64,000 bases of DNA from Prorocentrum cordatum (Eukaryota): assembly GCA_963575745.1 (NCBI GenBank), contig CAUYUJ010000172.1, forward strand, positions 1 through 64,000. Reading direction: 5' to 3'. The translations under genes and the position numbers were made by a program. Positions 6,223-53,810 of this stretch are shown piece after piece (the first letter of the stretch is position 1; each line of letters starts with the position of its first letter). Under the pieces are notes generated by a model that was not told the DNA's origin, ran no database searches, and saw only the letters and a list, made by a program, of their open reading frames with translations.

Positions 6223-6430
6223 AAGGGGAACGAAGAACGACATAAACATAAAAACTCGGAGGTCCGCGCGGACTTCTCGGATCGGCGCTGAACACCCCGC
6301 CCTGGCGCGCGCCGCGCGCCAGGGGCGGCGCCAGAGGCGCCGCCAGGGGGGTCCAGCGAGGACCCGAGAAATCCGTGCGGACCTCAGAGTTTTTATGTTT
6401 ATGTCATTCTTCGTTCCCCTCGTTCCCCTA
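6223..6430. mobile_element. T-hairpin element, full-length copy with flanking GGCAC duplication
   Basis: ~70-bp inverted arms (AGGGGAACGAAGAACGACATAAACATAAAAACTC... / ...GAGTTTTTATGTTTATGTCATTCTTCGTTCCCCT) enclose two small palindromes. GGCAC occurs at 6218-6222 and 6431-6435. An empty site is present at 5773-5791. Confidence 0.85.
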
Positions 6431-6718
6431 GGCACGACGAAGCGCACCGTCCACCTGCGTCAAGGACGGCGCACGAAGATACACCAAAGGGGGGGGCACG
6501 ACCCTGCAGGCGTCGGGATCCACCAAAAGGGGTGGGGGGACCCTGAAGGGGGGCACTAGTTAGATCCGCTGGTTCACCGAACTGCCGCAGACAGCTGCCC
6601 CCCGCATGCCCCACCTGTCCGCAACTGTCGGGAGCTGCCGGAAGCTGGGGGGCCTGTCTTGGGCGGCTCGGTGCAAGAACCGCGCGATTTCACGCACGCC
6701 CCGGGGCACACACGCGCA

Positions 6719-6753
<35 letters not shown>

Positions 6754-6821
6754 TCTTGATTCGCGGGTCGAGAGCGAGCCTCTTCCGGTCGAAGCTAAGC
6801 GGGCCGCGCACAGCTTTGACA

Positions 6822-6872
<51 letters not shown>

Positions 6873-7387
6873 GCGCCCCCTGCGGGATCCCGAAGGTGCT
6901 CTCGGGGGCGGGCAGAGGCGGGCAGAGCAGGGCGAGAAGCCAGAGAAAGAGGCGGCTGGAGCCGTCTCGGATCTGGGCCGCGGGCGCCCAGGCGCTGCTT
7001 TCGGGAGGGAGGCTCTGTGGACGCGTTCAACGCGTCGTCGCCTGTGCAGGCGCGAGTGGAGCAGTGGCCCGCGTAGTTCGGCGTGCTATGTCGAGGGGTG
7101 ATGTTTCTCAGCCGTCCCTGGGTTCAGCTGCCGGTAAGGGCTCGCATTGGCTCATTGCGGGCGATGTCTCTGCCAGCGTAGTATGCGATGCACTAGAAAC
7201 CACTACAGCAACACGTTCACGTGCAGCGAAAGTGGCCACAGGGCCATAGCAGGGCAGCGCGCGTCATCCAGCGAAGACCGGCCTGGCCGGGAAAAAACAG
7301 GGACAGAGCCAGGGTGCGGAAAAAGGCAAGACCGAGCGCAACCAGGCCTCCAGGACAACCGCCGGGACAGCCCTCGGAACAGCACCC

Positions 7388-7722
7388 GGGACAACCATCC
7401 AGAAACCATCGGGACAACCATCGGGACAACCATCGGGACAACAATCGGGACAACAATCGGGAAACCATCGGGACAAGCATGGAAACAACCATCGGGACAA
7501 CCATCGGGACAACCATCGGGACAACCATCGGGACAAACATCGGGGCAACCAACGGAACAACCATCGGGACAACCATCGGGACCAACCATGGGGACAACCA
7601 TCGGGACAACCGTCGGGACAATCATCGGGACAACCATCGGGACAACCATCGGGACAACCATCGGGAAAACCAACCATCGGGACAACCATCGGGACAACCA
7701 TCGGGCCACACATCGGGACAAC
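7388..7722. repeat. 12-bp tandem repeat (GGGACAACCATC)n
   Basis: Direct reading. Confidence 0.95.
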
Positions 7723-8789
7723 CAGGAGCCACCAGGAGCAACGGCGCGGACACGGGGTGACCCTTCTCAAACACGCACGGCACGAACAAAAACGAAACGA
7801 TTTCATGGTTGAGGCACCTCCCCCTTCACTTCGGACTCACGGCGTCTTCAGCTCGGATGCCATCAGCAGAGCTCCGAACTGAGCGCCCGTCCTACAACAG
7901 GTTCGCATCGGAATCGAATTACCGCCTCATCCTCATGCTTCTGAATTGGTTCCTGCTTCGACGCCGTCAGAATAGGCTGTCCCCACACACGCCCGCGGGC
8001 TCCGAGAAGGCGCACGCGCGCGCGCTGGCAATTGACTGCGTCCACGGGGTGAGAAAATCGGACGGGGGGGCAGTGGGCGCAGGGCGAGACTGGCATCAAC
8101 TCTTCTGGAGGGGCCCTGGGACACACAAATCCGCGGACCCCTTGTGGGTCTCTAGGCGTGTGACATTGTTTTTCCCCCATAAGCCCCCCCCCCCGGGACC
8201 CCAAACCGGCAATTTGACCCCCCCCCCGTCGGATCCGACCCGCCCCCGAACTCATCAGGGGCGGTCGGGGCCCCGCAGGCTCCGCCTGGAGCTCCAAGAC
8301 AATTCGTAAAGCCTCCCAAGACACCCCCAAATCGCCGAATGATCGATCCAAGACGCCGCGATGACTCCCCAAGAGGCCTCCACGAGGCTTCCCAGAAAGC
8401 CCCCAAGATGCCGATATCGTCGAATTCCCATGGGGATTGTACACTTTTCGTATACACGCCTTTTCGCCCTTCGCGGCGCGGGCGAACACCCGCGAGGCAC
8501 CCAAAACCGCTCCAAGACAGCCCAAAATGTTCCCAAGATTCCCTCAATACTGCCCAAGAGAGCCCCAAGGCGGCCCCAGCGGCGCCCAAGACGGCACTCA
8601 AGCGCTCCAAGACGGCGTCAGGAAAAGGCCACAAGTGGCTGCCAGGAAGCCCAGAAGCCTCCAAAAGGCACACAAAAGGCCCAAAATGTCTCCGAGAGGC
8701 TGAAAAGAAGCTCTGGAACGGCGTCCAGGAGCCTTCAAAACTGACGCCCAGAGGCTCGCGGGAACCCTCCCCGCGAGATTCCTACGGAC

Positions 8790-10530
8790 GTTCCCGATGC
8801 TTCATACTCACAACTCAGGCAGGGCGGCGGGATGGACCGAAGGCTGCGAGACACTGTCGCGGAGTTCGACCGCACCGACAACGTCATACCCGGCAACTCG
8901 ACTCACCGCCTTTATACCACCTGCATAAGATTTGCCCCCCCTTGGCCTCCAAACCGAAACATCGACAAACTCCCTTCCTTTGCATCACCCCCTCCTCTCC
9001 CTGTCCCTCCTGACGGCACCGCGCACTCGCGCGCTGCTACAAGCGCTGCCACGGGTCTCACGCGCAGGCTTTGCACTTCAGCGTGCGGTTTCGGTGGGCA
9101 CGCGCGAAATGCGGTCCACCCGCGAACTGAGATTGCGGGAGCTTCCTCTTGCAAGCGCCGAAGCACTCGCCCGCTCGCGAACGCCGAGCCGCGAAGCCGA
9201 CGACAATGCACTCCGCGCGTGAAACTTGATTGTTCCTCGTGAAGTGGTCACTCTCTTGCCTGTCGCTGATGTGATGCTGCCGAGCGAACTGCTTCGTGCA
9301 CGCTGTACACGTCAACAGAGCCTTTTCAACCGCTTCGCCGCCTTGGCAACTCCCTTCGCGCTGACTCCTCCTGGCGACGCTGTGCGCACACCACCCTTTT
9401 TGTTTTCGTCGCCCGGTGGCTTTTTCACTTGATTCCTACTCAAACGGCCAACCTCCCAGAAAGACACCCCGCAACCGGGCGCACAGCACGTCAGCGGCTC
9501 CGCTTCCACCTCTGCTTTCTATTGTCGATTCTCTGCTTCGCAATGCCTCCGCAGCACCACCTTCTCTCGATCCTCCGCGCACTTCCGACGCAACCTCTGC
9601 CCCGCTGCGTTGAGTTTCTTTTGAGCCCCCCGACATATCCGCCTGTTCGTCGCACAGCGACAGGCACTTATCGTTCGTACATCGCACAGTGCCCACGCTC
9701 TCTGTCCACTTCGCGTCGCCGCTCCTCGACTTCTGCTGGGCTTGGACATGGCTGCACTTCGCGCAGCACATTGTCCGAATCCATTTCGTCTCCCGTCTCC
9801 CTCTCGTCGACCGCGCCGTCCGCTTTCCGACGGGCACAATTTCGAGTCGCCTCGTCACCCCCCGCTCTTTGTTGCCCACCCTGTGCACGTTGTGCACCAT
9901 TTCGTCCGCGTGTTCATCTCTTCTGCGCACTCCTCGCAGAACGCCGGCCGATCCTTCCTCTGGAACGCATACTTCGTGCATGCCTCTACAAGCAACCTCC
10001 GCCGGCGGCGCTCGCACTGGTCTCGCGGCATCAGTTCCGCCTCCCACGCATCCCAATCCACGCTCTCCTCTCGTAGCACCTGCAATAGTTTTTTGTTGCG
10101 CGCCCGCCATCTCACCTGCGTTGTAAGGTGTCCTATCAAAAAGGCCAGAAGATCAGCAGGTTCTCTCGCCTGCGCACGCGCGTGATGGCAACATAACTTG
10201 ACATCCAACTCACGCCGCGCCCTCTTTCAAGGTCCGCTATCACTGCCCCCATTGTCTGGCCTTGCGCAGAGTGCGCCGTCACTGCCAAAGCCAGGGTTAT
10301 CATAAACTGGGTGCCTTTCACACTCAACACTGGATGTTTCCTATACCCGCCCAAGAACCAATTCCGACCTTTCGATGGGAAGATCGGATACAGACCCAGC
10401 CCCCACCCTGGCAGGTGCCACTCCTTCGTGTGGAATACCAGAAACGCGAACCGAAAATACCAAGAGTCCAGCCCAAGAGAGCTCGAAGAGGCCGCACTGA
10501 CAACCCGAGGGAGACCCGAATGCCCGGGAA
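8790..10530 (-). pseudogene. Decayed Pif1/RecD-like SF1B helicase C-terminus plus CxxC-rich tail; probable Helitron-like transposon remnant
   Basis: Reads QFMITLALAVTAHSAQGQT..VIADL..SYVAITRV..LLIFWPF (SF1B motifs V/VI, ~10140-10310). After frameshifts it continues DRTPYNAGEMAG / LLQVLREESVDWDAWEAELMP and several CxxC pairs (CEEC, CTTC, CTAC, CLSC), with many stops. Boundaries are approximate. Confidence 0.75.
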
Positions 10531-13500: not shown

Positions 13501-14451
13501 GGGTGACGATAAGTCGAGAACCTCCGAGATCTGGCGGCTTTGGAAGATGTCTCGGGCGCCGCGGCCTTCTCAGAGCGTTCCGGAACGCTCTGCGAGCGTT
13601 CCGGAACGCCCTGGAACAGATTCATCCTCGTCCTGGCCCCGTCCGACTCGGTCAGGCCAGATATGGCCCACCTTGGCATCCCCCCAGCGTCGGCGATGAG
13701 TCAGCGGCGTCGATGCGAAGCAAATCGGGCTCCACATCGAGCCGCATCGGCGATACATCGGCGATGTGACGCGATCCTCCGACCCCATCTGTTCTGACTG
13801 CATCTAGGAAGCCTCGATCCCCCTCCTCCTCCTCCTCCTCCTCCTCCTCCTCCTCCTCCTCCGTTTACTCCTCCCTTCCTCCTTACTCCTCCTCCCTCTC
13901 CTCCTCCTCCTCCTCCTCCTCCTCCTCCTCCTCCTCCTCCTCTCTTCTTTTACTCCTCCTTTTTCTCCTCCTCCCTCTCCTCCTCCTCCTCTCATCATCC
14001 TCCTCCTCCTCCTCCTCCTCCTCCTCCTCTCCTCTCCTCCTCCTCCTCCTCCTCCTCCTCCTCTCCTCCCTCCTTTTCCTCTCCTTTTCCTCTCCTTTTT
14101 CCTCCTCCTTACTCTCCTCCTCCTCCTCCTCTCCTCCTCCTCCTCCTCCTCCTCGTACTCCTCCTCCTCCTCCTCCTCCTTCTCCTCCTCCCTCCTCCTC
14201 CTCTCCTCCTCCTCCTCCTCCTCCTCCTTTCTCCTCCTCCTCCTCCGCGGGCACCTTGGACCCGCCGCGAGGAGCCGCGGCGGCCTCCTCGCACCGCGCC
14301 TCCCGCGAGCCGGCCGCGGCCGCCAGCCCCGCGGCGGCCGCCACCGCCGCCAGCGCCGCGTGGCCGACCGCGTCGGGGCGGCGGGGCCGCTCTGGGGGCC
14401 GGTCGGTGTTTCTTGCACGGGGAGGCGCAGGACTCGGGGCTCGAACGCATC

Positions 14452-15490: not shown

Positions 15491-15571
<81 letters not shown>

Positions 15572-15623
15572 GCAACAACAACAACAACACCAACACCAAC
15601 ACCAACAACACCAACAACAACAA

Positions 15624-15670
<47 letters not shown>

Positions 15671-15671
15671 G

Positions 15672-15743
<72 letters not shown>

Positions 15744-16022
15744 AATCATCATCATCATCATCATTATTATCAGCATCAGCATCAGCATCAGCATCATCAG
15801 CAGCAGCATCATCAGCATCATCATCATCATCATCATCAGCGGCAACATAATCAGCATCATCATCGGCAGCAGCATCGTCAGCATCATAAGCATTATCATA
15901 GTCAAAAAAACATTATCATCATCATCATCATCAGCATCATCATCATCATCGGCATAATCATCAGCAGCATCATGATCATAAGCATCATCAGCAGCACGAT
16001 CGTCAGCATCAGCAACAGCAGT

Positions 16023-21470: not shown

Positions 21471-24400
21471 TTAGGAGGGGAGGAGGAGGAGGAGGAGGAG
21501 GAGGAGGAGGAGGAGGAGGAGGAGGAGGAGGAGGAGGAGAAGGAGGAGGAGGAGGAGGAGGAGGAGGAGGGGGGGGGGAGGAGGAGGAGGGGGAGGAGGA
21601 GGAGGGAGGAGGAGGAGGAGGAGGAGGAGGATAAAAAGGAAGAGGAGGAGGAGGAGGAGGAGGAGGAGGAGGGAGGAGGAGGAGGAGGAGGAGGAGGAGG
21701 AGGAGGAGGAGGAGGAGGGGGAGGAGGAGGAGGAGGAGGAGGAGGAGGAGGAGGAGGGGGAGGGGGAGGAGGGGGAGGAGGAGGAGGAGGAGGAGGAGGT
21801 GGAGGAGGAGGAGACATGGTACGCATGTGTTTTACACACTCGACGAAAAAACTCGGGGCACATCAGCTCTGCAATCGATCCCCTACTCGTCGCTGCACCG
21901 ACCTTGCAGACGTGCTGCAGCGGATTGCTGCGTGAATTTCTGTCAATGCAAGACCCGAAACGGCGAGCGAAAAACGAAGTGAATCACCCGTGGATGTTTT
22001 GTGGTCTTCACTCCTCGCCCCCAAATATCAGCACAACATCTTCCCTTCGAAATCTGGAACGATACTATCCAGGACAATCCGGGCCCATCCCAGTGTCTTC
22101 TGAACGGAATCCGGTCTGCGATGTTGGCGCCGTGGTACAGTGGAGGCCAGCCCACAAGAAACCTTTCGCGAGAAACCCAACCCTGAGACCCCAGGACGCC
22201 CGTTGCTCTCCGCTGTGGGAGCGTCACGCCCTCCACGGCCAGAACCATCGAAGCCCAAGAAGCCCAGGGCACCCCGGAGGCACGTGGGGCGCCTCTTGGC
22301 ACGGCCCCCCCCCCGTGCTCGACGGGCGCTCGACACTGCCGGCCCTGGGCACGGGCACGCCGCGAGAGCTGCCCGCGCACGGCACGCGAAACGTGCCGTC
22401 GCTCGGACGTCTATTTCCCGTGCACCTTTTCGGTTTCGCACGTGTTTTCGTTTGCTCGACGGTCCAGGATGGTCCTCGATGGTTCTCGCCGAGAAAAAAA
22501 GGCACGCGTCCGAGCGATGCCAAAAGGAAAGAGGGCCGCGGAGCCGCCCGGTGCTGTGGCGACAGCAGGCGGGGCGGGCCTCCCCCATCGGGAGGCTCGG
22601 GAGGCCCCCCCCTGCCTTCCGAGGAGCCGTCCCCTCGGATCGCCGTGGGTGCTGATAGGGGGTTGTCGTTGGGTCGGGCATGTCCCCCTAGAGGCGGATT
22701 TGGGACGACGAACCAAAGACAGTCGAAAAGATGTTCCAAAATTGACAAAAATAGTAGGCAGCCAGGCTATTTCTGACTCTTTTTGAATTCTCCTCCTGCA
22801 GGGGGGGGGACGCGCCCAGTTTCAGGCTAGCGGTGGGCGCTGAGGTGGGATGCGCCTGGCCCAGCCCAGCCTGTCCCCGTTCCAAAAGAAGCCGCCCCCT
22901 CGGATCGCCGTCGGCGTTGCTCAGGGGGGGCCGCGATCTCCCGTGTGCCCGTGCGCCTCTGCCTGCCCTCGCCCCCCTCCCCGGCAGGAGCGAAGGAGCC
23001 GCGGAGCGGCGCCGTGCCGCGAACGCGACCGCGGCGCCGACCGAGGGCGCGGGCGGGCGCGCCCGAGTCCCCAGGCCTTCGCCCCCCGCACACCCCGAGG
23101 GCGAGGAGAAGACACCGCCGCCCGCGGCCGCCCCGAGGCCCGCCCTCAAGCCTCGCTCGGCCGATCTCCGCTCCCACCGGCGTGGCCTGGGCGCCCCCCG
23201 CCAGCGGAGCCCTCTGCGGCAGGCGTCGTGCCCACCGCGGGGGTCGTTCAGCCTCGAACGATCGGCCGCTTCCGATACGGTACACCTTGGCGGCGCGCAG
23301 AGGGGGCAAGGCTTATCGGGAGGAGGCCGCTTCTTAGAAGGCGCCGGCCCTGTATCTTTCGAGAAGGCCCGCGCCTGCTGAGAAGCAGGGGTGCTTCTGA
23401 GAGGCCTTCCCCCCCCCATGACCCCCTCTGCGCGTGGCCGAGCATCGTTCAACATCGGCCGAGTCTGGGTCGCCGGCGGCATTCAACGTTGAACGCCAGC
23501 GACAGGGTCGCCGCCTGTTGGCACGACGCGGACCTACCGTAGGGCACACAAAAGAGGCATAAGCATACACTCTTGGAGCACCGAGCGGGGTTCTTGGATC
23601 AGCGCTGGCCCCCCCCCCGGCGGTGCCTCCCAGCGCCGACGCAAGAGATCCGCGCGGAGCTCCAAAAGTGCTCCTCCGAGGAGCAGCAGGCTGCGACGGA
23701 CTTCGCTCGCGTTCGCGTCGTCTCATTCATCGGCGGCGAGCGAGGGGGGCAAGTGAGAAGCGGCGGGCCTTCTCAGAAGGCTCGGAAGTCCCGCGGCCTC
23801 CTGAGCAGTTCTCTGAGCCGCCCCCGAAGAGACAAAACAAAAAAAAACGAAAAGCTAGGCGCGAGGGCATCCGGGCCTCCGAGAAGTCCCGCCGCCTTCC
23901 CCAGAGGCCTTCTCCTCCTCTCCCCCCCTCGCTCGCCGCCGATTGGTCAAGGGCTCCCGGGCTCCCAAGTTCGCTCCTCGCGCTGCGCGAAGCGCGAATG
24001 ACTTCGCGCCCTCGTGCCGCCCCCCCCGGGGGAGAAGAGGAGGACGAGGAGAAATCGGAGCCGAACCGCTCGCCGCCGAAGTCGGCGCCCCCGAGGGGCC
24101 CTCGGTCTCGCGCTGGCCCCGCCTGGGCTGCATTAGCGGCGGCCCCGCCGCGGCGAAGGCCTTCCCCCCACCCCCCCACCCCTGGGTTCTGGCGCCTCCC
24201 GTCCTCCTCCGCCTCCTCCTCCGAGCCTCCTCCTCCTCCAGCAACTCTGGGCGCAGGGTGGTGCGAGCATCCCTCCACCCCACGGCGCTCGAGCGGCCAG
24301 TTTTCCAAGGCAAGAGCGCGGGGGATTCGCAGGTTCGCCCAGACGGGTGGCAATGGGGGAGGGGGACCTGAAAATAGAGGCCGAAGGAAGGGGCCCCAGA

Positions 24401-36016: not shown

Positions 36017-36855
36017 CTGCGTCAAAAGGAGGGGCAGGAGGAGGGAAAAGGAGGGGCAGGAGGAGGGGCAGGAGGAGGGGCAGGAAGCGGGAAAAAATAT
36101 AAACAAAAAAAAAAAAAAAAAAAGTCCGAGCGGATTTATCGGATCTGCGCTGGACCCCCTCCCTGGCGCGCGCAGCGCGCCAGGGGCGGCGCCGGAGGCG
36201 CCGCCGGGGGGGGGGCCAGCGCGGATCCAAGAAATCCGCGTGGAGCGCCGAAAATTATTGTTTATGGCAGCCGGACTTCGGACGAAAGATCAGAAATAGC
36301 CGAAACATGTTGAACAAATTAAAAAAATACCTGAAAAATCGTCCCTCGACTAGTCTTGATTTTGGTGGGACATTGCTCCTGTAGAGGGCCTCGCCCGACT
36401 CATGATAACGCCGCCGCGAGCGCGCGCGGCCGCGGCCCCGCGCCGCGGCGCCCGCACAACGCCGCGGGGTCACGCCGCAGCGGCGGGCCGCTTGGCAGCC
36501 CGACGGGCCGCGATTGAGCGGCAGCGGCGGCGGCGGCGGCAGGGGCTTGGCCAGCAGGCCCTCGGCCCAAGGTGGCCCAGGAGGCGCCCAAGACGGCCCA
36601 AGAGGGCTTCGAGAGAGGTACAGGAGGGGTACAGTCAGAAATCCTAATAAGGACGCGCGGTAAGGACGCAAGACCCTTGGAAGCCGAAGTTGGGATTTTT
36701 GGGACGGCGGACGACGAAAACGTCAAAGACGCAAGAGCAAGGAAGAGCAAGGACGCAAGGGTACCCTGAGCAAAGTCGCGCGTCCTTATTTGGGCTTGAC
36801 TGCATCAGAAGAAGAAGGAAGAAGAAGAAGAAGATAACAACGAAAAAATATTAAT

Positions 36856-37004
36856 ATAAAGTTGTGGCGCTCCGAGCGGGTTTCTCGGATCTGCGCTGGA
36901 CCCCCCTCCCTGGCGCGCGGAGCGCGCCAGGGGCGGCGCCAGAGGCGCCGCCAGGGGGCCCCAGCGTGCATCCAAGAAACCCGCGCGGAGAGCCAAAAGT
37001 TTAT
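36856..37004. mobile_element. T-hairpin element copy (others at 23575-23668 deleted, 36125-36250, 46925-47093 reversed, 51664-51745 half, 53371-53550)
   Basis: Shared core TCCGCGCGGATTTCTCGGATC-GCGCTGG..CCCTGGCGCGCggaGCGCGCCAGGG-GCGGCGCCagaGGCGCCGCC..CCAGCGCGGATCCGAGAAATCCGCGCGGA. Confidence 0.85.
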
Positions 37005-39204
37005 GCTTAGGCCGTTTTCTCCTCTTTGGGGTATGTCGAACTGACACGTCGAGCCCTCGGCCCCCAGAAGGCTGCACCGCCAAAGGGCGCCGAAAAACAA
37101 AAAAAACGAGTGGCCCCGAAACGCGCCCAAGAGGCCAATGAGAAGCCCCCGGAGGCACCACACGGCCCCATCGTCGGCGGAATGGCGTCAACCTCTAGAA
37201 TTGCGGGACGGCGGCGGCGGCGCGGCGACGGCAAAGCCAACAGAGACTCGATCGTGGCCGTGATGCTCGCGAAAACGCCTGGGCCCAGCTTTTCAGCGAG
37301 CCGCAGCAGCACTCACTGGCCCGTGGCCGCGGGCAGGCCGCGCGGCTGCCGGAAGCTGCGCAGACTGGCGGCGCCAGTCGCGCTGACCGGGCACCCCAGC
37401 TCGGGCAGCGCTCTGACCAGGGCCGCATCGTTCACCGCCTCGAGCCCGGCCAGGCAGTGGTCCGCCATGCATTTTCCAATGTGGCTCGGCACTGGCGCCC
37501 ACGGCAGCTGGCACGATGGAGCCAGGGCGCTCGCTCCGCCAATGTGGCTCTCACCAGCGTGCCCGAACCTGCGGCGACCTCCCGAGCCTCAGGCAACCGC
37601 GGCGACGCAGAGCTGACAGAGGCGGGCACTCTTTTGGTCGAAGCCCGAGCAGTGCCTTCCCGGCCACCGGGAGCAAGCCGCGGGGACGCCGACCACCCTG
37701 AAGCGGCTTCTGACGCCTGCGCGGCTCTCTCCCAAACGCCCCGCGCCGGCCGACCGCCCCGGTGATTGATCGTGCGCACCGGCGGCTCCAGCACTGCACC
37801 GTCTGCCAGACGCTGCAGCCCAGGCCAAGCACCCACTACTCCAAATCCCTTATTCATCGACCCCCCCTAAAAAACCGGACCCCCCTCCAAATGCGACCTA
37901 ATATTCTGGAACCCCCTTTTCGACGGGGCGCCTGAATAAACCGGACACCCTAAGCTCCAATCCAAAGAAAGCGCTCTCATAAATCGGAGCCCCCCAGTTA
38001 CAAACAAGGCGCCTTTAAACACTGGACCCGGGGGACGACTATAAGGGATTTGGAGGAGATTCCACTGGCCAGGCCCCGACTGCACGACACGGCAGAGGCT
38101 CGACGATCCACGGCGCCACCTCCAAGACGTCGACGCCGACGCCCTCGCACCACCCCGGGCGTCCTGCCCTCGACGACCGACCAGCTGACCCGCTCGAGCG
38201 CTGGCGTGGCTGCAGAGAGGAGGCGCCGCCACACACCCGAGGCGAACTGGAGGCCAGGCACTGCTGCATGCCGCCTCGATGATGTGCTGCAGAGTACACT
38301 GCTCACACGCCGCCCTCCACCTGGCCATGACGCAAGAGGAGCATGAGCGTGGCACGGTCCAAGAACGGGGAGAGCATCAGGATCAGTGCCCCAAACCGGC
38401 ACGGAGATGGAGGGCGGGAGGGAGGGAGGGAGAGAGTGTGGGGTGGAGGAGGGGGGGAGAGGGGCGGGGACGGAGGGAGGGGGGGAGGAGGGCGGGAGGG
38501 GGAAGGGCGGGAGGGAGAGGGAGAGGGGGGGGGCAGGAAGGGCGGAGGGAGGCGGAGGGAGGCAGGGGGAGGAAGGGGGGGGCAATCGGCCCGCAATGGC
38601 TGCGGGTGGCACTGGCGGCGGCCTCGGAGCACGGCCCTCCCCGCTGCCCCTGGGCGGCCTGCCCCCTCAGGCCCCCTCCGTCCTGCACAACGCAGCTGCT
38701 CCCCACCGCACCCCCCCCCCGACGTGTCGGGCAGGGCGGGCCGGGCGGTGCGCCCAAGGGCGTCCTCGCCACGAGGGAGCCCGAAGCCTGGCCGCCGCAG
38801 CACTCGTCACGAGGACGGGGGCACGGGCGGTGGTCGCAGCAGGGCTCTCGCCGTGGCGAGCTCTCGTGCTGGTGCTGCACATCTGAAGGGGCCCTGGGAC
38901 ACACGAACAAAGAGACACAGATAACAGGAGTCCCCGTGTTTTCCCATATTTTCGGGCTTACTGTCTTCCCCCCCACTTCCCATATATAGTTTCTCATGTT
39001 CTCTGGGGAATCGACGATGAATTCTGTCGGTGTGTTTCTTCCCCTCCTGAATAGCTTGCTCCAAAAAAAAATGGTGCTTTGCCTCTGGGGCCCTCGCTTG
39101 CGTGTGAAGGAACCGGTCGGTGGGGGGTCCTTCGTCGGGGGCGCTGCTCGGAATTTCTCTGGGCTGCCCAGGGGTTTGCTCGAGGCTGCCCAGGGCTGCC
39201 GACA

Positions 39205-45697: not shown

Positions 45698-46292
45698 TAG
45701 TGAGATCGATACTGAGATCGATGTGGTGCCCCGAAGTGTCCCGTGGTATCCCGTGTCCCGTTGAGTGAGATCGATAGTGAGATCGATAGTGAAATCGACA
45801 AGTGTCCCGTGGTGTCCCGTGGTGTTCCGTTGAGTGAGATCGATAGTGTGATCGATACTGAGATCGATGTGGTGCCCCGAGGTGACCCGTGGTGTCCAAT
45901 GGTGTCCCGCTGAGTGAGATCGATAGTGAGATCGATAGTGAGATCGCCAAGTGTCCCGTGGTGTCCCGTGGTGTCCTTCCGTTGAGTGAGATCGATAGTG
46001 AGATAGATCGTGAGATCGATAGTGAGACCGATGTGGTGTCCCGTGGTGTCCCGTGGTGTCCCGTGGTGTCCCGCTGAGTGAGATCGATAGTGAGATCGAT
46101 AGTGAGACCGATAACGAGATCGAGAGGTGTCCCGAGGTGTCCCGTGGTGTCCCGTGTTGGCCCTTGGTGTCCCGTGGTGTCCCGTTGAGTGAGATCGATA
46201 GTAAGATCGATAGTGTGATCGACAAGTGTCCCGTGGTGTCCCGTGGTGTCCCGTGGTGTCCCGTTGAGTGAGATCGATAGTGAGATCGATTG
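45698..46292. repeat. Compound satellite alternating (GGTGTCCCGT)n and (AGTGAGATCGAT)n; related block at ~44060-44150
   Basis: Direct reading. Confidence 0.92.
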
Positions 46293-49200
46293 AGTCAGAT
46301 GTTGGTTCCCCACCCCCTCCCCCCCCCACAACCTCCTTTCACCCGAAGGGTGGTCGTATAGGTATATGTATATGTAGAATACCCTCACAGACAAGCTGCT
46401 CAGGGAATCACAAACAAAAACCTACAGCAAAGAACCTCGACACTGGAAGCGCCCTTTCACCCCCTCCCACCCCCTCCCTCTGGCTTGAGGCTGTATACAC
46501 AACCATTCATACAACCCTCACAGACAAGCAGCTCAGGGAAGCACCAAAAAGCATCCAACAAAGAACCTCAATCCTGGAAACGCCCGATCCCCCCCCGCGG
46601 CGCCCCCCGCTGTTTCGAGGACGTACTACCCCGGGTCAGCACAAACCCAGGTCGGCCAGGGACCTGTCGCGAACCCTAGCCGGCCGCTCAGCAGCTCCCA
46701 AACCCAAGTCAGCGGAAGGTGGAGAGAGGGAATCGGCCCCACGTGGCCGCCTAACCCGGGCCAGCCAAAAGGGGGAGTGGCTGGGCGGCGCGTCAAAGAG
46801 GGTAGGGGGAGGGGGGAAGGCTTCTGAGAGGGAAGGAGGCGGCTCATTGGAGGGCGCGGGCCCTAGACCTACAGACAAGGCCGGCGCCTTCTGAGAGGCA
46901 GGGGTGCCTCTAAGAAGCCTCTCCTAGGGGAACGGACAATAGCATAAACATAAAAAACTGGGAGGCCCGCGCGGATTTATCCTACCGGCGCTGGACCGCC
47001 CTGGCGGCGCCTCTGGCGCCGCCCCTGGCGCGCTCCGCGCGCCAGGGAGGGGGGTCCAGCACCGGTCCGAGAAATCCGCGCGGACCTCGGAGTCTCTTTC
47101 TGTTCGTGCCATGTTTCGCCCCCCCTATCTGAGAAGCCGTCCCCCCCCGCGCACCAACGCCCCCTCTGCGCGCGGCCGAGCTGGCGCTGAACCCCCCCGT
47201 CATACTCGAGGCCTCCTAGATGGGGTCGGAGTAGACAGGATCGGAGGATCGCGCCGCATCCCCGATGCATCGGGGATGCATCGGCGATGCATCGGCGATG
47301 CACTGGCGATGCTCTGGCGACGTCGGCGATGCATCGGCGACGTCGACTTGAAGCAAATCGGGCCCCACATCGAGCCGCATCGCCGATGCATCGGCCATGC
47401 AGCGCGATCCTTCGACCCCCCCTTTACTCGGACCCCATCCCGGGAGGCCTATAGACACACGGCGCCCCCCGCCGAGCACGCGGCGCCGCCGGCCGGGGCC
47501 TGCGCAGCGGCCCCGCCTTCGCGGGGCCCTCGGGCGCGGGCGGGGCGGCGCCCGCCGCCTCGGCCGCCGTCGCACGCGCGACCGTCGCGTGCCCCGCGTG
47601 TTCTGGGGCGCACAAAGACATACGGGTACTAATTGCACGTTCTGCTCGGAGGTGCGCGTCCGACCCGAGCATCTGGTACATCCGTCTTGTGGTATCTCGT
47701 TTCACGAGCGGTGTGGCAAGCAAGCGCCCGCCACGACGCAGATACTACGAGATTTCTCGGTGCGCGCGTCGCCCCTGGGGGGGGCGACGCACACATAGTG
47801 TTAGTATGTTGGGGCGACGCCGATGTTCCCCCTCTCCGCGGCTTGACGTTGGGCAGGCGGATGCCAACTGGGATCGTCGTCGGGATCATCGACTTAGGCC
47901 GGCGTGCTTGTTCTCGGAACGCTCTCTTGCTCCAAGAAAATCTCGTGGTCGGAGTGCTGGGCACTGAGATCGTAGCGTCGAGATGATGCACAAAGGAGGC
48001 CGAGTAAAAGAGGTAGCGACTTGGCGACCTGCGCGCTGCGGCTGGCACAGTAGCCTGCGTGAGCGCAGCTGGACAACAGAAGGCAACGGAGAGGGAGGAG
48101 AGGAAAGGAGAGGGGAGAGGGAGGGAGGGGGACAGGGGGGCGAGAAGGGAGGAGGGAGGGGGGGAGGGAGGCAGGAAGGAGGGGCTCTCTAGGGACTCTG
48201 CAAGGCGGCGGAAGGAGATAGGGGAAGAGCGTGGAGGGCGGATGGACGGGGCGGGACGCAGGGAGGAGGGGAGTGGAGTAGGAGACGAGGAGGGGGAGGG
48301 AGCGGCGAGGAGGGAGAAGCAAGAAGGGAGGAGGATGTTTGGGATTTCGCATCACAAGTTCGCCCAACTGCAAGCAGGATGAAAGTGGCATTACTTATGA
48401 TGTCGCTGCTAGGAAGCTCTTTGCCACCTCAGTGGCGTATGAGGGTCTCTTGAGGGAACTGGCTTCCAATAGACTTCGTTACCCCGCACTCACGTTTGCT
48501 AACTCCCAGGACAGCTTCCACATTGACCAGAAGGGAAGAGAAAGAGGAGAACAAAGAAGGAGGAGGACGACGAAGACGGCGGCAACACCAACGACGACAG
48601 CGGCGATGACAACGACGAACGACGACGATACGGTAGGTTCGTGCGGCGTCGGCGTGCGCAAAGGTGTTTGACACCGCATCGATCTTTCAACCTTGAACCG
48701 ATCGCGGCCCCGATCGGTCAAGGTTGAATTCCGTCGGGTCCTGTGGCGGTACCGTGCCCCTTGGTGCTTCCGTGTCGTTCTATCATGCGGAGTTCAACCT
48801 TGCACGCCGTCGCCAGCGTCGCTGGCGCGCCATCACCGCATGAACCTACCGTAGACGACGACGACGACGACGACGACGACCGACGACCGACGACCGACGA
48901 CGACGACGACGACGACGAGGACGACGAGGACGACGAGGACGACCGACCGACCGACGAACCGACGAGCCGAGCACATCAACACACATGCCGACAAACTGAC
49001 GAGCCGAGCAGACCTTTCTACAGGCCGTTCCCCTCACGACACCCCCTTGCGCGCGCGACCAAGCTGGGGGGGCAAACACAGATGGCCGCACCGCTGCTCC
49101 CCAGACCTCTCCCACTGGGGCACCTATCTTCGCGCGTCGCGCTCCGCACTTCGCGAGGCGCGATAATCTTGGCGTTTTCGCGACGCCCCCCCCCTGGAAC

Positions 49201-49300
49201 GGGATGAGGGACTCGCGCCTCGCTCTGAAACCGCCCAGACCGCGAAGCGCGACTGACTTCACACCCTCGTGACGGCGCTAGAAACACGGATATAGGCTTA

Positions 49301-51389
49301 GGTCGGGCGTGTCCTCCGAAAGGCGGAGCTTGGACGATTAACTCAAAATAGTCAAACAAAAATTCAAAAATAGCCAACAACTATTCCAAGAATCGTCCCC
49401 TGACTATTTTTTACTATTTTAGAATATTCCTCCTGTAGAGGAACACGCCCGGCTTAAATATAGGCACCGTTGCTCCCCGCCCGGCCGTGATCTCGAGGCG
49501 AATCTGGCCGCGTCGAAGAGGGCCAGGCAGCGACACGGTCAGACCACCGCCATTGAAAGGTCGGGCATGTCCTCATACAGGGGGATTTGGGACAAAAAAT
49601 CTACAAAAGAGTCAAAAGTATGCAAACATGATCCAAAAAAAAGCAAGAAATTGTCCCCTGACTATTTTGTAACTATTTTTGAATTTCCTCCTGTAGAGGG
49701 ACAGCCCCGATTTCACACCTGATGGAACGCCAAATGAGGAACGATGCCCCTCTGGGGCCGCGGGAGCGCCTGGGTGCACGAGGAGCGCAAGAGGGAGCAG
49801 CGATGGAAGGACCCGAGGATTAGGTCGGGCGTGTCTCCCTACAGGCGGATTTCGGACGAGCAAGAAGAAATATAAATTTAAATATACATATATATATATA
49901 TATACAAAAAGAAGCGAAAAAGCGTCCCCTGACTATTTCTTGACTATTGTTGAATATTCCTCCTGTCGAGGGACAGTCCCGACTTCAGCTGAGGATCGGC
50001 GAGCCCCTTCCGAACCCGACCTGCTCCGTGCCTGAGGGCCCTGGCTGCACCTCGGGCCTCCGGCGGCCGATCGGGGGGCTGCGGGCACCCCGGAACACCC
50101 TCGACGAGGCGAGGCGCCCGTCTGTCACCCCGGGCGGGGCGGCCCTACGAGAGGCCGCCCGTGGCGCCAGAGCGCCGAGAGCGAGAGCGAGAGAGAGAGA
50201 GAGAGAATTGCACAAACTTTGTATGACTACGTCTCTCCTGGCGCCTACGGATTAGCGGACAGCGGATGGCCGGTCTCAGTTGACATGAGACCGGCTATCC
50301 ACTAAGTCGTAGGCGTTCGGAGGTGGGATCCGGAGGGCGTCGGAGCCGGACGGCATAGATCAACCGCTCAGAATCGGATATGTGCGGGACTCTCCGACGA
50401 GGCGCAGTTGCTGGAAGGCAGCCCCGAAGCAAGAACACCCCCCAAAAGGCAAAGAATACGCAAGATCAGGTCGGGCATGTCCTCTTACAGGTCCCCTGAC
50501 TATTTTTAACTATTCTTGAACATTCCTCCTGTAGAGGGGCGTGCCCGACTGTAACGCAAGAGAACGCTGGAGGTCAGCAGCGATCTGCTCCCTGCGTCGA
50601 GAGCCTGGGGGCGAGGTGGCGGCCAAGCTGAGCCCCCAGCTAGGCCCCCCGCGTTCCTCGACCCCCGAACCTCGATCATCGATCCTCGACCCTGGGGACG
50701 AGCCTCGAACCTCGGATCCCAATCCTCGACCCTGACGGGCGACGACAGGAGGGGGGGGGGGGACCAGTTCACCTGGAGTCGGCGATGCATCGCCGATCCA
50801 TCGGCGGGAGGCCCCCGATAGCAGATCCGCACGCCCCTGGGCGGGGCGGGCTGTCGGGGGCCCTATGGCGAAGAGTGGATCACTGGGGGTCGATGCGTTT
50901 GCCCCCGAACAGGCACAGCCTCCTGAGGTTGCCCCTGAGGCTCGATCCTCGATCCTCGGCCCTGGGGACGACTGGTCGTGCACGGACGAGCCCGGCTCTG
51001 CGCAAACTCGGCTCAGCCGATTCAGAAAACCTGCGCTGCAGTTTCGGGGGGGGCCTCGAGCCCCGATACTCGAGCCTCGAGCATCAGACCTCGATCCTGG
51101 ATCCTCGGTCCTCGAGCCTCCGCCCTCGAGCCTCGAGCATCAGACCTCGATCCTGGATCCTCGGTCCTCGAACCTCCACCCTCGACCATCAGACCTCGAT
51201 CCTCGACCCTCGACCCTCGACCCTCGACTTAGGTCGGAGTTTCCTCCTACAGGCGGATCTTGAAGCAAAAATCAAGCATGGTTACACGTGTTTAAAATCA
51301 GTCCCAAAAAAATCATCGAAACATCGTCCCCTGACTAGTTGTTTTACCCACTTCTGCATACTCCTCCTGTAGGAGGGACGTGCCCGACT
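49301..51389. mobile_element. Cluster of five copies of MITE family A (TIR RGTCGGGCRTGTCCCYCTACAGG)
   Basis: Copies at 49301-49454, 49559-49712, 49823-49984, 50469-50550, 51232-51389. Further copies at 2849-3055, 12799-12915, 19553-19671, 19864-20014, 22672-22820, 30271-30499, 54019-54201, 54217-54528. They have ~25-bp imperfect TIRs, an AT-rich interior usually containing CCCCTGACTATTTT, and flanks often TTA/TAA/TCA. Confidence 0.8.
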
Positions 51390-53810
51390 CGACCCTCGAC
51401 CCTCGACCCTCGACCCCGGGGACGGCTGCGCGACCCGCCGCGGGGCCGGCGCCCCCGCCCAGCAGGCACGGCAGCCGCTCCAGCACGGCCGCGGCCCGCA
51501 GCTCCTGGAGGCCGCCACCGCCGCCGCCGTCGTCGTCGTTGCCGTCGTCGTCGTCATCGTCGTCGTCGGCGTCGGCGTCGCCGTCGCCGTCGGCGTCGGC
51601 GTCGGCGTCGCCGCCGCCGTCGTCGGCGTCGGCGTCGTCGGCGTCGTCGTCGGCGGCTCTCGTCAGCTCCGCGCGGATTTCTTGGATCCGCGCTGGAGCC
51701 CCCTCCCTGGCGCGCGGAGCGCGCCAGGGGGCGGCGCCGGGATCCAAAAAATCTTCGCAGAGCGTCGAAAGTGAATGATTGTGCAGCTCTTTCGTCTCCG
51801 AGCGGCGTCGAGGCCATCGGGGCCGACTCGACGATCTTCAGACCGAGTGTTAACGCAAACGCTGACGCAGACTCCAGAGTACTGGACAGAGCAGCGCAGA
51901 CTTGCTTCGACATGTTCGGCCCCTGGGGTCCCTCGCTGGCCGCCAGGACGCCAGGACCATCAGCAGAACACTCAGGACGAAAGGCTGGCCCCAGGGAAAC
52001 GGTCGGGGCTTCTGGTGGGCCGCATGGAAAAGAAGGCAGCTCGGATCTCTGCACGGATCCCCGCAGGGATACTGAAGGGGTACGATCTTCGCGCTGCCAT
52101 CAGGCACGCCGAACGAAGAACGGAGGGGCCCGTCTGGCCACGGCCCGCCTCATCCACGGGTGAGCTCCCCGACCTGGAACCCGGGGCGCGGCCCGAAAAC
52201 GCGGGCAAAGAACAGCTCACGCGTGTCGTCGACAAACACTCGGTGGCAACCCGTGGGGGCCTCCCGTGCCATGTGGTCGGCTCTTACGGATCGACGCTGG
52301 CCGACGCCAGATCGACGCTACATTCGACACTCATCGACGCTAGCCGACGCCAACTCGGCACTATCTCATCGACTCCCAGACACTACTTGACGCTAATCGA
52401 CGCTGAAGGCAAAATCGACGCTGATCGACGCTAATCGACTCCCAGACGCTAATCGACGCTAGTTGACGAGGGTACACGAGGCTCCCGTGATTGGCTACCG
52501 AACAAATACGCACACGCGACAGTCCTCGTGCTGCTGCCACAAGAGGAGCGCGGAAGAGAGAAAAAGAGGAACGGAGGGGGCGCTTCTGTGGCCAGGGCGC
52601 GCCTCGGACGCGACTAGCTCCCCCGACCTCCTGCTCCTCCTGCTCCTCCTCCACAAATCCTCCTCCTCGTCCTCTGAGAAACGGCCCGAAAACCAGAACC
52701 CCTCATGAGCCGAAAATTGTCTTATTGTTTGCAGCGTCGTGGCTGCAGGGGCGGTTCTCAGCGGGATGCTACGGCGGCGAATATATGTGCCTAACCGGCT
52801 GATTACGGAAGCTGTCTCCCCTACATGGCTCGGGGGGGGTCTGGGCCGTGTGGGGGCTCTGCCCACCTAACGGGGACATCGACCGCCCCTAGGACACTTA
52901 GGGCGCTTGTAATTCTCGCGCAAGCTATCTTAAGCCAAATGAAAGCCGCCGTAGTATCCACGTAGAGCACCCTATCCCCCGTAGCAACTCCCGCCGTAAG
53001 AGATCGACGGTGAGCGATAGGCCCGCCATTGAGCGATGCCTGGTCGCTGGGCGTTTCGTCGAAGATCGAGAATCGCCGACGAGGCTCGAGGATCGAGGGT
53101 CAGGGCTCAAGGTTTGATGATCGAGGATCAAGGACCGAGGTTGAAGGTTCGAGGATTCAGGACCTAGGACCGAGGATCGAGGATCGAGGGGCGAGGTTCG
53201 CGGCTCGAGGTCCGAGGTCATCGCGGCGACAAGGTTCAAGGAGCCAGGTCTTTCGACGAGTCTTTGTCGGATGTTGCTAGGAGTGCCCCTGGCCCAAGGT
53301 GCCCCCAGGATTGTCGAAGTGGCCCAGACGGCCTCCAGAGCACGCCCCACGAGGTCCAGGGTAGGAGAAGAAAAAAACACACAAACGTAAACTTCTGGCG
53401 CTCCGCGCGGATTTCTTAGATCCGCGTCGGACCCCCCTCCCTGGCGCGCGGAGCGCGCCAGGGGCGGCGCCGGAGGCGCCGCTGGGTGGGCCCAGCGCGG
53501 ATCCGAGAAATCCGCGCGGAGCGCCCAAAGTTTATGCTTGTGTGATTTTTGCTCTTCTTCGAGGGGGACAGGGGGATGGAAGAGGAGGAGGAGGGAGGAG
53601 GAGGTGGAGAAAGAGGAGGAGGAGGAGGAGGAGGAGGAAGGAGGAGGGAGGAGACAGAGGAAGGAGGTGTAGTTTGTGTGGTTTTCATGTTTGTGTGGGG
53701 CCCCCAAAAGGAAGCCAGAAGCTGGGGGCACCTCGGGCCAGGGGCACCTGCAGCCACCCCCGCCTCTGGACGCCCTCGGCTCTGCTGGGCGCCTCCGGAG
53801 CCCTCCAGAG

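What the first reader, a model, noticed from the sequence alone, without database searches (positions are those of the whole stretch)
6223..53550. Dispersed mobile family folding into a parvovirus/AAV-ITR-like T-shaped hairpin
Seen: seven copies (6223-6430, 23575-23668, 36125-36250, 36856-37004, 46925-47093, 51664-51745, 53371-53550). Complete copies have a long stem capped by two adjacent 3-nt-loop ears, CCCTGGCGCGC-gga-GCGCGCCAGGG and GGCGGCGCC-aga-GGCGCCGCC. The centre is the best-conserved part. The outer stems fall into two subfamilies (AACTCGGAGGTCC.../...GGACCTCAGAGTT versus AAACTTCTGGCGCTCC.../...GGAGCGCCCAAAGTTT) with changes mirrored on both arms. Established: ordinary MITEs conserve their termini rather than their centre, and a stem with B-B'/C-C' ears is the architecture of AAV/parvovirus terminal hairpins used in HUH-Rep rolling-hairpin replication. 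Inference: a non-autonomous element whose functional signal is the T-junction, possibly copied via ssDNA by a HUH/helicase partner, or acting as a structural DNA signal.
Basis: partly seen in the sequence, partly recalled or inferred. Interest (0 to 1): 0.8.

Follow-up and report, generated by a model that had tools for sequence, protein, structure and literature searches.

The report
Palindromic mobile repeat with two-eared centre
This is a real, very abundant 200-base palindromic repeat, most likely a small non-autonomous transposon of a dinoflagellate-type alga, whose virus-like T-shaped fold is probably a by-product of its short palindromic motifs and not a replication signal.

Summary
All seven copies are there. 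The two ear motifs occur 6 and 5 times against 0.00 and 0.03 expected by chance. All 5 full copies folded as single-stranded DNA give a long stem capped by two 3-nt-loop hairpins.

The family is mobile and abundant. 842 contigs of one metagenome run lie on 6212-6435 only, and none on the flanks. 57 predicted proteins in public data are translations of copies. Of the 30 looked up, 6 are Prorocentrum cordatum (dinoflagellate) proteins and 10 come from transcriptome-type sets.

The parvovirus/HUH reading is not supported:
- The ears never vary in the window, so they show no covariation.
- In the wider sample they change about as often as the inner stem, without compensation.
- The consensus stem is a perfect palindrome, so flip/flop cannot be told from insertion orientation.
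- No Rep, helicase or transposase domain was found in 300 window ORFs or 25 carrier proteins.

Best reading: a MITE-like palindromic transposon, a new member of a known kind. Its target-site duplication and its autonomous partner remain unknown.

The parts
6223..6430 (+). Full copy, subfamily 1 (outer stem GGAGGTCC/GGACCTC). Termini are AAGGGGAACGAAG... and ...CTTCGTTCCCCTA. The right arm carries a 9-nt tandem duplication of its end (CGTTCCCCT twice).
   Evidence: nhmmer 6219-6429, E 9e-64. Metagenome contigs cover 6212-6435 only, with loose ends at 6224 and 6420. Fold -70.5 kcal/mol, z -11.1.
6300..6324 (+). Ear B of the reference copy: an 11-bp palindromic arm pair around a 3-nt loop. The loop is GCC here; the family majority is GGA.
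6324..6344 (+). Ear C of the reference copy: an 8-9-bp palindromic arm pair around a 3-nt loop. The loop is AGA here; GGA is the majority.
6263..6272 (+). 10-bp perfect palindrome TCCGCGCGGA inside the left inner stem. Its partner in the right arm is 6372-6381, with one mismatch. Together with the two ears the element holds four short GC-rich palindromes.
   Evidence: Read directly. This bin has the highest summed depth (6260-6275: 11867).
23541..23669 (.). Degenerate copy with a central deletion that removes ear B and half of ear C. The centre orientation cannot be decided.
   Evidence: nhmmer scores 48.5 bits on + and 48.6 bits on -.
36085..36278 (+). Copy whose left outer arm is replaced by an A-run. 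Ears and inner stems are intact. It shares left-arm markers CCGAGCGG and GATCTGCG with the copy 730 bp downstream.
36827..37037 (+). Full copy, subfamily 2 (outer stem GGCGCTCC/GGAGAGCC).
   Evidence: nhmmer E 2.8e-63. Fold z -9.9.
46918..47132 (-). Full but decayed copy, subfamily 1. Its centre is the reverse complement of the others (ear C with loop TCT, then ear B with loop TCC), so the whole element lies on the minus strand.
   Evidence: nhmmer 192.0 bits on - against 99.1 on +. Sequence. Fold z -10.9.
51665..51793 (+). Truncated copy. It has no left outer arm, and a 26-nt deletion removes the 3' half of ear C and the junction to the right stem.
   Evidence: nhmmer alignment.
53358..53566 (+). 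Full copy, subfamily 2 (GGCGCTCC/GGAGCGCC). Ear C has one change (GGCGCCGCT).
   Evidence: nhmmer E 2.7e-63. Fold z -12.0..

Best explanation
What it is: a high-copy, non-autonomous, MITE-like DNA transposon family of a GC-rich dinoflagellate-type genome, probably Prorocentrum or a close relative.

Anatomy: each unit is a near-perfect palindrome of about 200 bp.
- Purine-rich, A/T-containing outer arms that start with TA.
- A GC-rich inner stem that holds the 10-bp palindrome TCCGCGCGGA on each arm.
- An asymmetric 45-bp centre made of two more short palindromes, the 'ears'.

Inferred mechanism: an unidentified transposase encoded elsewhere in the genome moves copies in trans. It probably binds the conserved subterminal and central palindromic motifs as double-stranded dimer sites. 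After insertion, copies decay freely through private unpaired substitutions, internal deletions and truncations.

Mirrored differences between subfamilies arise in the source copies. Either both arms must keep matching the same protein, or one arm is corrected against the other.

The T-shaped fold is what any single strand of such a sequence would adopt. It is probably incidental to transposition, although transcribed copies would form long hairpin RNA.

Shown: family, copy number, sharp boundaries, unrelated flanks, both orientations, decay pattern, predicted fold.
Inferred: cut-and-paste mechanism, role of the palindromes as binding sites, host identity.
For: - Seven copies in 64 kb, far above chance.
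- Two further copies in unrelated metagenome contigs, L013 and L020. These are the only 2 family members among the 27 loci of the scan.
- 842 contigs of run X1 lie on the element only, with zero depth in all flank bins. Loose ends at both borders have no consensus (agreement 0.39 and 0.40), which indicates many different insertion sites.
- 57 predicted proteins in unrelated contexts are translations of copies. Of the 30 looked up, 6 are P. cordatum proteins, 9 carry a EukProt label, 1 is an MMETSP transcript, 13 are ENA and 1 is Logan.
- The inverted repeat runs from the TA-led termini to the centre.
- The copies hold no recognisable gene of their own: no Pfam domain in ORFs spanning them.
- Copies show the decay expected of dead insertions. 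41 of 294 main-stem pair cells are broken or gapped (my count from the table), and there are deletions in 23541, 51665 and L013 and a truncation in 36085.
- A second, unrelated palindromic MITE-like family with internal CGATGCATCG palindromes lies in the same window. Palindromic small elements with internal mini-palindromes are therefore usual in this genome.
- The P. cordatum genome paper reports a 4.15-Gb, 59.7% G+C, repeat-rich genome. It attributes inverted-repeat 'introner elements' to non-autonomous DNA transposons (PMC10666404, passages read). The window is about 60% G+C.
Against: - No target-site duplication could be fixed. GGCAC flanks copy 6223 on both sides, but AGGGCAC is also the terminus of copy 23541, so the left GGCAC is probably element sequence. 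Other copies give 4/5, 3/5 and 0/5 matches at the same offset (my reading).
- The outermost 15 nt, which a transposase normally needs, are the least conserved part: 50% and 62% pairwise identity. Summed depth there is 40-476, against thousands in the core.
- No autonomous partner or transposase was found. No whole genome was available.
- No empty site or insertion polymorphism was seen.
- In the six aligned copies the ear stems differ from the majority in 1 of 228 cells, against 60 of 491 in the inner stems (Fisher p 1.2e-9). Plain neutral decay does not explain this, although ascertainment through the ear motif contributes.
Confidence: 0.62

Rival explanations
1. Structure-dependent mobile element. 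The single-stranded T-shaped hairpin itself is the substrate: it is nicked and copied by a HUH-type or other structure-specific enzyme (rolling-hairpin or peel-and-paste style).
For: - The predicted ssDNA fold is very stable and T-shaped in 5 of 5 full copies.
- The core is better conserved than the termini.
- In six copies the ear stems are nearly invariant while their 3-nt loops vary: 1 of 228 cells against 6 of 36 (p 2.8e-5).
- Stem differences between subfamilies are mirrored.
- No clear TSD was found.
Against: - The ears show no covariation.
- In 57 translated copies the ears change about as often as the inner left arm (amino-acid mismatch 0.163 against 0.187, though only 5 copies have all parts).
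- Single ear changes are uncompensated. For example Gly to Asp in P0023 and Gly to Ser in P0020 and P0027, with the residues encoded by the partner arm unchanged.
- No Rep or helicase was found near any copy.
- The hairpins are solitary and do not bound a unit.
- No viral relative holds the exact 19-base ear junction in IMG/VR.
- Mirrored stem changes are equally expected for ordinary TIRs.
Confidence: 0.08
2. Intron-generating transposon ('introner') or hairpin-RNA source. The same MITE-like element, but one whose biological importance lies in being spliced out of genes, or in giving double-stranded RNA when transcribed.
For: - Dinoflagellate introns are reported to be enriched in elements with inverted repeats at both ends and 3-5-nt direct repeats, in Prorocentrum and Amoebophrya (PMC10666404 and PMC7789003, passages read).
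- Each end of the element reads, in the sense direction, as a pyrimidine tract followed by TAG. This resembles a 3' splice site (my reading).
- 10 of the 30 carrier proteins looked up come from transcriptome-type sets: 9 with a EukProt label and 1 MMETSP transcript. That the EukProt set is a transcriptome is recalled and was not checked.
Against: - The flanks of four full window copies show no coding signal and no frame restored by excision (no GC3 excess).
- No consistent 5' splice site lies at the ends.
- In the transcript-derived and annotated proteins the element is retained and translated, not spliced out.
- This sample can only contain unspliced copies, so it says little either way.
Confidence: 0.12
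3. Solitary terminal hairpins left behind by a larger element or integrated virus with hairpin or long inverted ends. These would be analogous to solo LTRs, formed by recombination between the two ends.
For: - The architecture resembles a viral terminal hairpin.
- The family has hundreds of contigs in one run.
- The termini are poorly conserved, while the core is conserved.
Against: - No longer unit bounded by two copies was seen. The two close pairs in the window (36085/36827 and 51665/53358) lie in the same orientation, and nothing with a Pfam domain lies between them.
- No viral contig holds the ear junction.
- The 25 longest carrier proteins have no domain.
Confidence: 0.08
4. Host structural or regulatory DNA signal. 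Examples are cruciform-forming or protein-binding sites used in chromosome organisation or replication, spread by transposition and then kept by selection.
For: - The ear stems are almost invariant in the window copies while the neighbouring stems decay.
- The element holds four short GC-rich palindromes of the kind dimeric DNA-binding proteins recognise.
Against: - In the wider sample the ears decay.
- Two of seven window copies have lost an ear by deletion.
- Copies lie in either orientation and in unrelated flanks.
- Position or synteny could not be tested.
Confidence: 0.05

Closest known systems
Palindromic MITEs of eukaryotes (Stowaway/Tourist-type and similar non-autonomous TIR elements; features recalled, not taken from a call)
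   Same: Short (about 200 bp), non-coding, high copy number and dispersed in both orientations. The ends are inverted repeats, the whole unit can fold into one long hairpin, and TA stands at most ends.
   Different: The inverted repeat runs the whole length. The outermost 15 nt are the least conserved part, while a GC-rich core with four short palindromes is the best conserved. No fixed TSD or parent transposase could be shown here.
Dinoflagellate 'introner elements' (Amoebophrya, Prorocentrum; PMC7789003, PMC10666404, PMC9860276; passages read)
   Same: Same kind of host. Non-autonomous repeats with inverted repeats that form hairpins and short direct repeats. Length is in the same range (the Amoebophrya A120 non-canonical introns average 240 nt).
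   Different: Those are defined by lying in introns and being spliced. For this family, intron location and splicing could not be tested. The carrier proteins retain the element, and the window flanks show no coding signal.
AAV/parvovirus inverted terminal repeat (features recalled)
   Same: The predicted ssDNA shape: a long stem capped by two small GC-rich hairpins with 3-nt loops.
   Different: The unit is a solitary hairpin and not one of two ends of a coding genome. No Rep gene was found. The stem holds no tandem tetranucleotide Rep-binding repeats and there is no unpaired D-like segment. Flip/flop is undefinable because the stem is a perfect palindrome. There is no sequence relative in the viral collection.
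Double-hairpin elements of fungal mitochondrial DNA, and prokaryotic palindromic repeats such as REP/BIME and Correia elements (recalled only)
   Same: Small GC-rich mobile repeats built of adjacent short hairpins. The structure-forming motifs are the conserved part.
   Different: Those live in organelle or bacterial genomes, are much shorter, and lack a 75-bp flanking stem. No relation by sequence was tested or is claimed.

Membership tests
MITE (non-autonomous TIR DNA transposon) | Short and without coding capacity of its own | tested here: met
   Units are about 130-210 bp. ORFs spanning them have no Pfam domain.
MITE (non-autonomous TIR DNA transposon) | Terminal inverted repeats | tested here: met
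   Left ends align with the reverse complement of right ends out to the TA-led termini in 5 of 5 copies examined. The consensus structure pairs 68 columns.
MITE (non-autonomous TIR DNA transposon) | Many dispersed copies with unrelated flanks | tested here: met
   842 contigs lie on the element, flank depth is zero, and border loose ends have no consensus. 57 carrier ORFs.
MITE (non-autonomous TIR DNA transposon) | Target-site duplication of fixed length | tested here: inconclusive
   5-mers at the same offset match 5/5, 4/5, 3/5, 0/5 and 0/5. The 5/5 case overlaps probable element sequence. TA stands at most ends and could be either a TSD or part of the TIR.
MITE (non-autonomous TIR DNA transposon) | Autonomous relative with the same ends that encodes a transposase | not testable with these tools
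   No whole genome is held. None was found in the window or in carrier proteins.
Parvovirus/AAV-type terminal hairpin | T- or Y-shaped terminal palindrome with two small internal arms | tested here: met
   Predicted fold of 5 of 5 copies. This is a prediction only.
Parvovirus/AAV-type terminal hairpin | Hairpins bound a linear genome that encodes a HUH Rep/NS1 | tested here: not met
   The hairpins are solitary. No Pfam family at E 0.01 or below other than low-complexity or sub-threshold hits in 150 ORFs. None at 1e-4 in 150 more. None in 25 carrier proteins.
Parvovirus/AAV-type terminal hairpin | Flip and flop forms relative to an asymmetric stem or adjacent unique sequence | tested here: inconclusive
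   The consensus stem is perfectly palindromic. The only shared asymmetric marker (CCGAGCGG) occurs in a copy of ambiguous centre orientation.
Parvovirus/AAV-type terminal hairpin | Structure maintained by compensatory change in the small arms | tested here: not met
   0 of 19 ear pairs show a change on both sides. Single uncompensated changes occur in translated copies.
Helitron (HUH rolling-circle transposon) | Asymmetric ends (5' TC, 3' CTRR) with only a 3' subterminal hairpin and no TIRs (features recalled) | tested here: not met
   The ends are inverted repeats, TAGGGGAACG... and ...CGTTCCCCTA, and the whole unit is a palindrome.
Introner (intron-generating transposon) | Copies lie in genes and are spliced at element-defined borders | not testable with these tools
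   No annotation or RNA reads exist for the window. The flanks lack coding signal. Carrier proteins retain the element.

The most novel reading that the evidence does not exclude
The conserved core (two ears plus the palindromic inner stem) may be a structure-specific signal. It could be extruded as a cruciform or three-way junction, or formed on single strands, and recognised by a junction- or hairpin-specific enzyme that moves or copies the element. Alternatively the host may have co-opted it as an architectural DNA signal in the unusual chromatin of dinoflagellates. That would make it a eukaryotic cellular counterpart of viral rolling-hairpin ends, without any sequence relation to them.
Probability: 0.08. 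Interest if true: 0.8.

Novelty: new member of a known kind. Interest (0 to 1): 0.3.

Why it matters
If the ordinary reading is right, this is one more abundant non-autonomous transposon family in a huge, repeat-rich dinoflagellate genome. It is still useful for three reasons:
- Repeat masking: several annotated and transcript-derived 'proteins' are just translations of it.
- Dating bursts of transposition.
- The question of how small palindromic elements shape introns and genome size in these algae.

Its inside-out conservation is unusual for a MITE: the core is conserved and the termini are loose. That points to transposase or host-factor binding at internal palindromes, which could be tested once the parent element is found. 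Only if the core proves to act as a folded DNA structure would it be of wide interest.

Tried and rejected
- Whole genome of the window: none is held.
- Earlier findings: none for this genome or sequence.
- Rfam: no match.
- Prokaryote genome scan with an inner-stem 20-mer: 8 loci, all chance hits in bacterial coding DNA.
- Viral scan with the ear junction: 1 chance hit.
- Metagenome scan with ear B: 25 of 27 loci are unrelated bacterial palindromes.
- Sequencing runs: one DNA metagenome run with a small share (0.06) and no RNA holder listed. Nothing can therefore be said on expression from reads.
- 'Opposite strands' joints in 8 listed rows (9 contigs): considered as flipped centres. Rejected as evidence, because near-palindromic arms with private changes can fit either strand by chance, and likeness was set to 80.
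- Host identification from window ORFs failed. An Atlas search of one ORF gave only scores of 0.82, and a homologue search of a likely exon gave nothing.
- The ORF next to the L020 copy has only unnamed relatives, plus a 0.88 lead to a DNA methylase family. It is not linked to the element.
- 5-bp TSD: first read as GGCAC at copy 6223 and TACCC or TAAGC at L020. Withdrawn as proof after the termini of other copies showed that part of these strings is element sequence.
- Flip/flop through the marker CCGAGCGG: abandoned because the centre orientation of copy 23541 is undecidable.
- Excision test for restored reading frames: no signal.
- Literature. No paper holds 'miniature inverted-repeat' + 'T-shaped' + 'hairpin'. 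A search on T-shaped, inverted terminal repeat, transposon and rolling hairpin gave only AAV and rolling-circle papers in the 12 of 19 listed. A dinoflagellate genomics review has 0 occurrences of MITE, palindrom- or hairpin. Huff et al. 2016 is not held. Supplementary tables of PMC10666404, which may list repeat or introner families, were not opened.

Full report
**1. What is in the window**

The window is about 60% G+C, full of tri- to dodecanucleotide tandem repeats, and has two 100-N gaps. It has no Rfam match. None of the 300 ORFs scanned gave a convincing Pfam domain. It looks like repeat-rich eukaryotic nuclear DNA. No whole genome was available, and the scan held no earlier notes.

**2.

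- Reading the seven places shows one family.
- A profile built from six full copies finds those seven places and nothing else convincing. E-values run from 9e-64 to 1.6e-14, and there are two weak possible relics at 27063-27196 and 55477-55581.
- Ear B occurs 6 times at up to 2 mismatches, in fact all exact, against 0.00 in 100 shuffles.
- Ear C occurs 5 times against 0.03 expected.
- As single-stranded DNA, 5 of 5 full copies fold into a long stem with two adjacent hairpins with 3-nt loops. Energies are -66.6 to -79.2 kcal/mol, z-scores -9.9 to -14.0, and 0 of 200 shuffles fold as well.
- Copy 51664 continues to about 51793 after a 26-nt deletion. Copy 23575 begins at 23541 and has lost ear B and half of ear C.
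- Copy 46925 carries the exact reverse complement of the centre. It scores 192.0 bits on the minus strand against 99.1 on the plus strand, so it is simply an element in the other orientation.

**3. It is abundant and dispersed**

- A scan of public metagenome contigs with ear B gave 27 loci. Of these, 25 are unrelated bacterial palindromes and two are family members. L020 is a full copy. L013 is a copy with about 50 nt deleted from one arm.
- Scans of viral contigs and of prokaryote genomes gave only chance hits.
- I laid the contigs of the one listed metagenome run on 6100-6550 at 80% likeness. 842 contigs lay on 6212-6435, and all bins outside had depth zero. Loose ends at 6224 and 6420 had no consensus (agreement 0.39 and 0.40). 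The flanks therefore differ from copy to copy.
- The same table shows which letters of copy 6223 are private. It gives GGA as the majority loop of both ears.

**4. Whose element it is**

All six reading frames of the element are open, so gene callers translate it.
- A word-based search with the translated L020 copy found 5 ORFs.
- A full HMMER search of 1.84 billion representatives found 57 at E up to 0.001, and 7 at up to 1e-10.
- I looked up 30 of them:
  - 6 are annotated proteins of Prorocentrum cordatum; the same records also carry a Polarella glacialis label.
  - 9 carry a EukProt label 'Pyramimonas sp. CCMP1952'.
  - 1 is an MMETSP transcript.
  - 13 are ENA metagenome ORFs.
  - 1 is from Logan.
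- The P. cordatum genome paper describes a 4.15-Gb, repeat-rich genome of 59.7% G+C. Its introns are enriched in inverted-repeat 'introner elements', which the authors attribute to non-autonomous DNA transposons (PMC10666404, passages read).

The window's composition fits. I infer a Prorocentrum-like dinoflagellate host. This is an inference, not a demonstration.

**5. Anatomy**

- The inverted repeat runs from TA-led, purine-rich termini (TAGGGGAACGAAGAA... and variants) to the centre.
- Each inner arm holds the perfect 10-bp palindrome TCCGCGCGGA, at 6263-6272 and 6372-6381 in the reference copy.
- With the ears, this gives four short GC-rich palindromes per unit.
- A second, unrelated palindromic family lies in the same window, at 34790-35015, 47195-47455 and partial copies at 13688-13817 and 55903-56034. 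It has internal repeats of the palindrome CGATGCATCG.
- Small palindromic elements with internal mini-palindromes are therefore a habit of this genome and not a peculiarity of this family.

**6. Conservation**

In six aligned copies:

| Region | Pairwise identity |
|---|---|
| Ear stems | 99.1% |
| Loops | 75.6% |
| Inner stems | 82% and 75% |
| Outer arms | 50% and 62% |

- Cells that differ from the column majority number 1 of 228 in the ears and 60 of 491 in the inner stems (Fisher p 1.2e-9).
However, L020 was found through an exact ear, and 'complete' copies were chosen partly by their ears.
- Less biased data soften the claim:
  - In the metagenome run the bin with the highest summed depth is the inner left stem (11867), against about 8500-8800 for the ears. 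Summed depth is no copy number, and each element has two arms but only one centre. The outer arms have 40-476.
  - In the 57 translated copies, per-position identity is similar in the left arm and the ears.
  - In the only 5 copies that have all three parts, the amino-acid mismatch fraction is 0.187 (left arm), 0.163 (ears) and 0.283 (right arm).
- The conserved unit is therefore the whole GC-rich core and not the T-junction alone. The termini are the loosest part, which is unusual for a MITE.

**7. Covariation**

- The long stem has 10 pairs with changes on both sides. Slid controls give 0-3, and 5 of 500 shuffles reach 10. 90.4% of cells are paired.
- The two ears have 18 of 19 pairs that never vary, and none with a double change. 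They give no evidence for or against a structure.
- In the translated copies, single changes in one ear arm leave the residues encoded by the partner arm unchanged. Examples are Gly to Asp in P0023 and Gly to Ser in P0020 and P0027. This is what decay looks like, not compensation.
- Mirrored stem differences between subfamilies are expected for any element whose two ends must match. They do not separate the models.

**8. Flip/flop**

- After the private letters of copy 6223 are replaced by the majority letters, the two arms are exact reverse complements. The window consensus shows the same.
- One sublineage has an unmirrored marker, CCGAGCGG, on one arm of copies 36085, 36827 and 23541. The centre of 23541 is mostly deleted, and its orientation is undecidable (48.6 against 48.5 bits).
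- The few 'opposite strands' joints (9 contigs of 842) can arise from near-palindromic arms fitting either strand.

**9. Target-site duplication**

- Copy 6223 is flanked by GGCAC on both sides at symmetric offsets. However, AGGGCAC is also the terminus of copy 23541, and copy 6223 carries a 9-nt tandem duplication of its end. The left GGCAC is therefore probably element sequence.
- At the same offset L013 gives 4/5, copy 46925 gives 3/5, and L020 and copy 36827 give 0/5.
- TA stands at most ends. It may be a 2-bp duplication or simply the start of the inverted repeat.
- The question stays open.

**10. Partner**

- No transposase, Rep or helicase domain was found in 300 window ORFs or in the 25 longest of the 57 carrier proteins.
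- The two close pairs of copies in the window lie in the same orientation, with nothing recognisable between them.
- The ORF next to the L020 copy belongs to an unnamed multi-copy family, with only a weak lead (0.88) to DNA methylases.

**11. Introner reading**

- Flanks of four full copies show no GC3 excess and no frame restored by excision.
- The carrier proteins and transcripts retain the element.
- Without annotation or RNA reads this cannot be settled. No RNA run was listed.

**12. Verdict**

- This is a genuine, very abundant, palindromic, non-autonomous mobile family of a dinoflagellate-type genome.
- The most economical mechanism is trans-mobilisation by an unfound transposase that binds the internal palindromes, followed by neutral decay.
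- The AAV-like shape is confirmed as a prediction. Every further feature that defines a parvoviral end was either not met or could not be tested.
- I found no description of such a T-shaped element in the papers searched. Repbase and Dfam could not be consulted, and the supplements of the genome paper were not opened.

Noticed in passing
window 34790-35015 and 47195-47455; partial copies at 13688-13817 and 55903-56034: A second, unrelated palindromic MITE-like family of about 230-260 bp. Its ends are of the type GAGGCCTCCTAGATGGGG... and ...CCCATC..GGGAGGCCT. Inside it has 11-nt tandem repeats of the palindrome CGATGCATCG. One copy lies 60 bp from the hairpin element at 46918-47132.
   Followed up: partly
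P0049, P0033, P0054, P0037, P0038, P0063: Six annotated Prorocentrum cordatum proteins, some named 'transmembrane protein', contain a translation of this repeat. These parts of the gene models are probably transposon sequence read as exon.
   Followed up: partly
P0021, P0023, P0024, P0026, P0030, P0032, P0044, P0052, P0057: Nine carriers come from one EukProt set labelled as a green alga (Pyramimonas sp. CCMP1952), with protein numbers up to about 471,000. A dinoflagellate-type repeat in that set suggests a mixed or mislabelled data set, or a wider host range.
   Followed up: no
L020 757-1248 (minus strand): An ORF 400 bp from the L020 copy belongs to a multi-copy family known only from unnamed metagenome and Atlas clusters: 15 relatives at 59-84% identity. 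The only functional lead is a 0.88 feature score to an N6/N4 DNA methylase cluster.
   Followed up: partly
window 7353-7760, 39208-39622, 42046-42146, 44054-44120, 45764-46264, 47263-47340: There are many arrays of 10-12-nt tandem repeats, besides long GAG, GAT, CAA and GAC microsatellites (for example 15462-18400 and 58565-59290, which are inverted relative to each other).
   Followed up: no
window 3807-5281: An 89-bp tandem repeat in two blocks (3807-4483 and 4960-5281), about 70-90% identical between units.
   Followed up: no
window 27063-27196 and 55477-55581: Very weak matches to the hairpin-element profile (E 0.004 and 0.009). They may be old relics or GC-rich chance matches.
   Followed up: no
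window 36085-36278 and 36827-37037: Two copies 730 bp apart in the same orientation share two unmirrored left-arm markers (CCGAGCGG, GATCTGCG). They may be a local duplication and not two separate insertions.
   Followed up: partly
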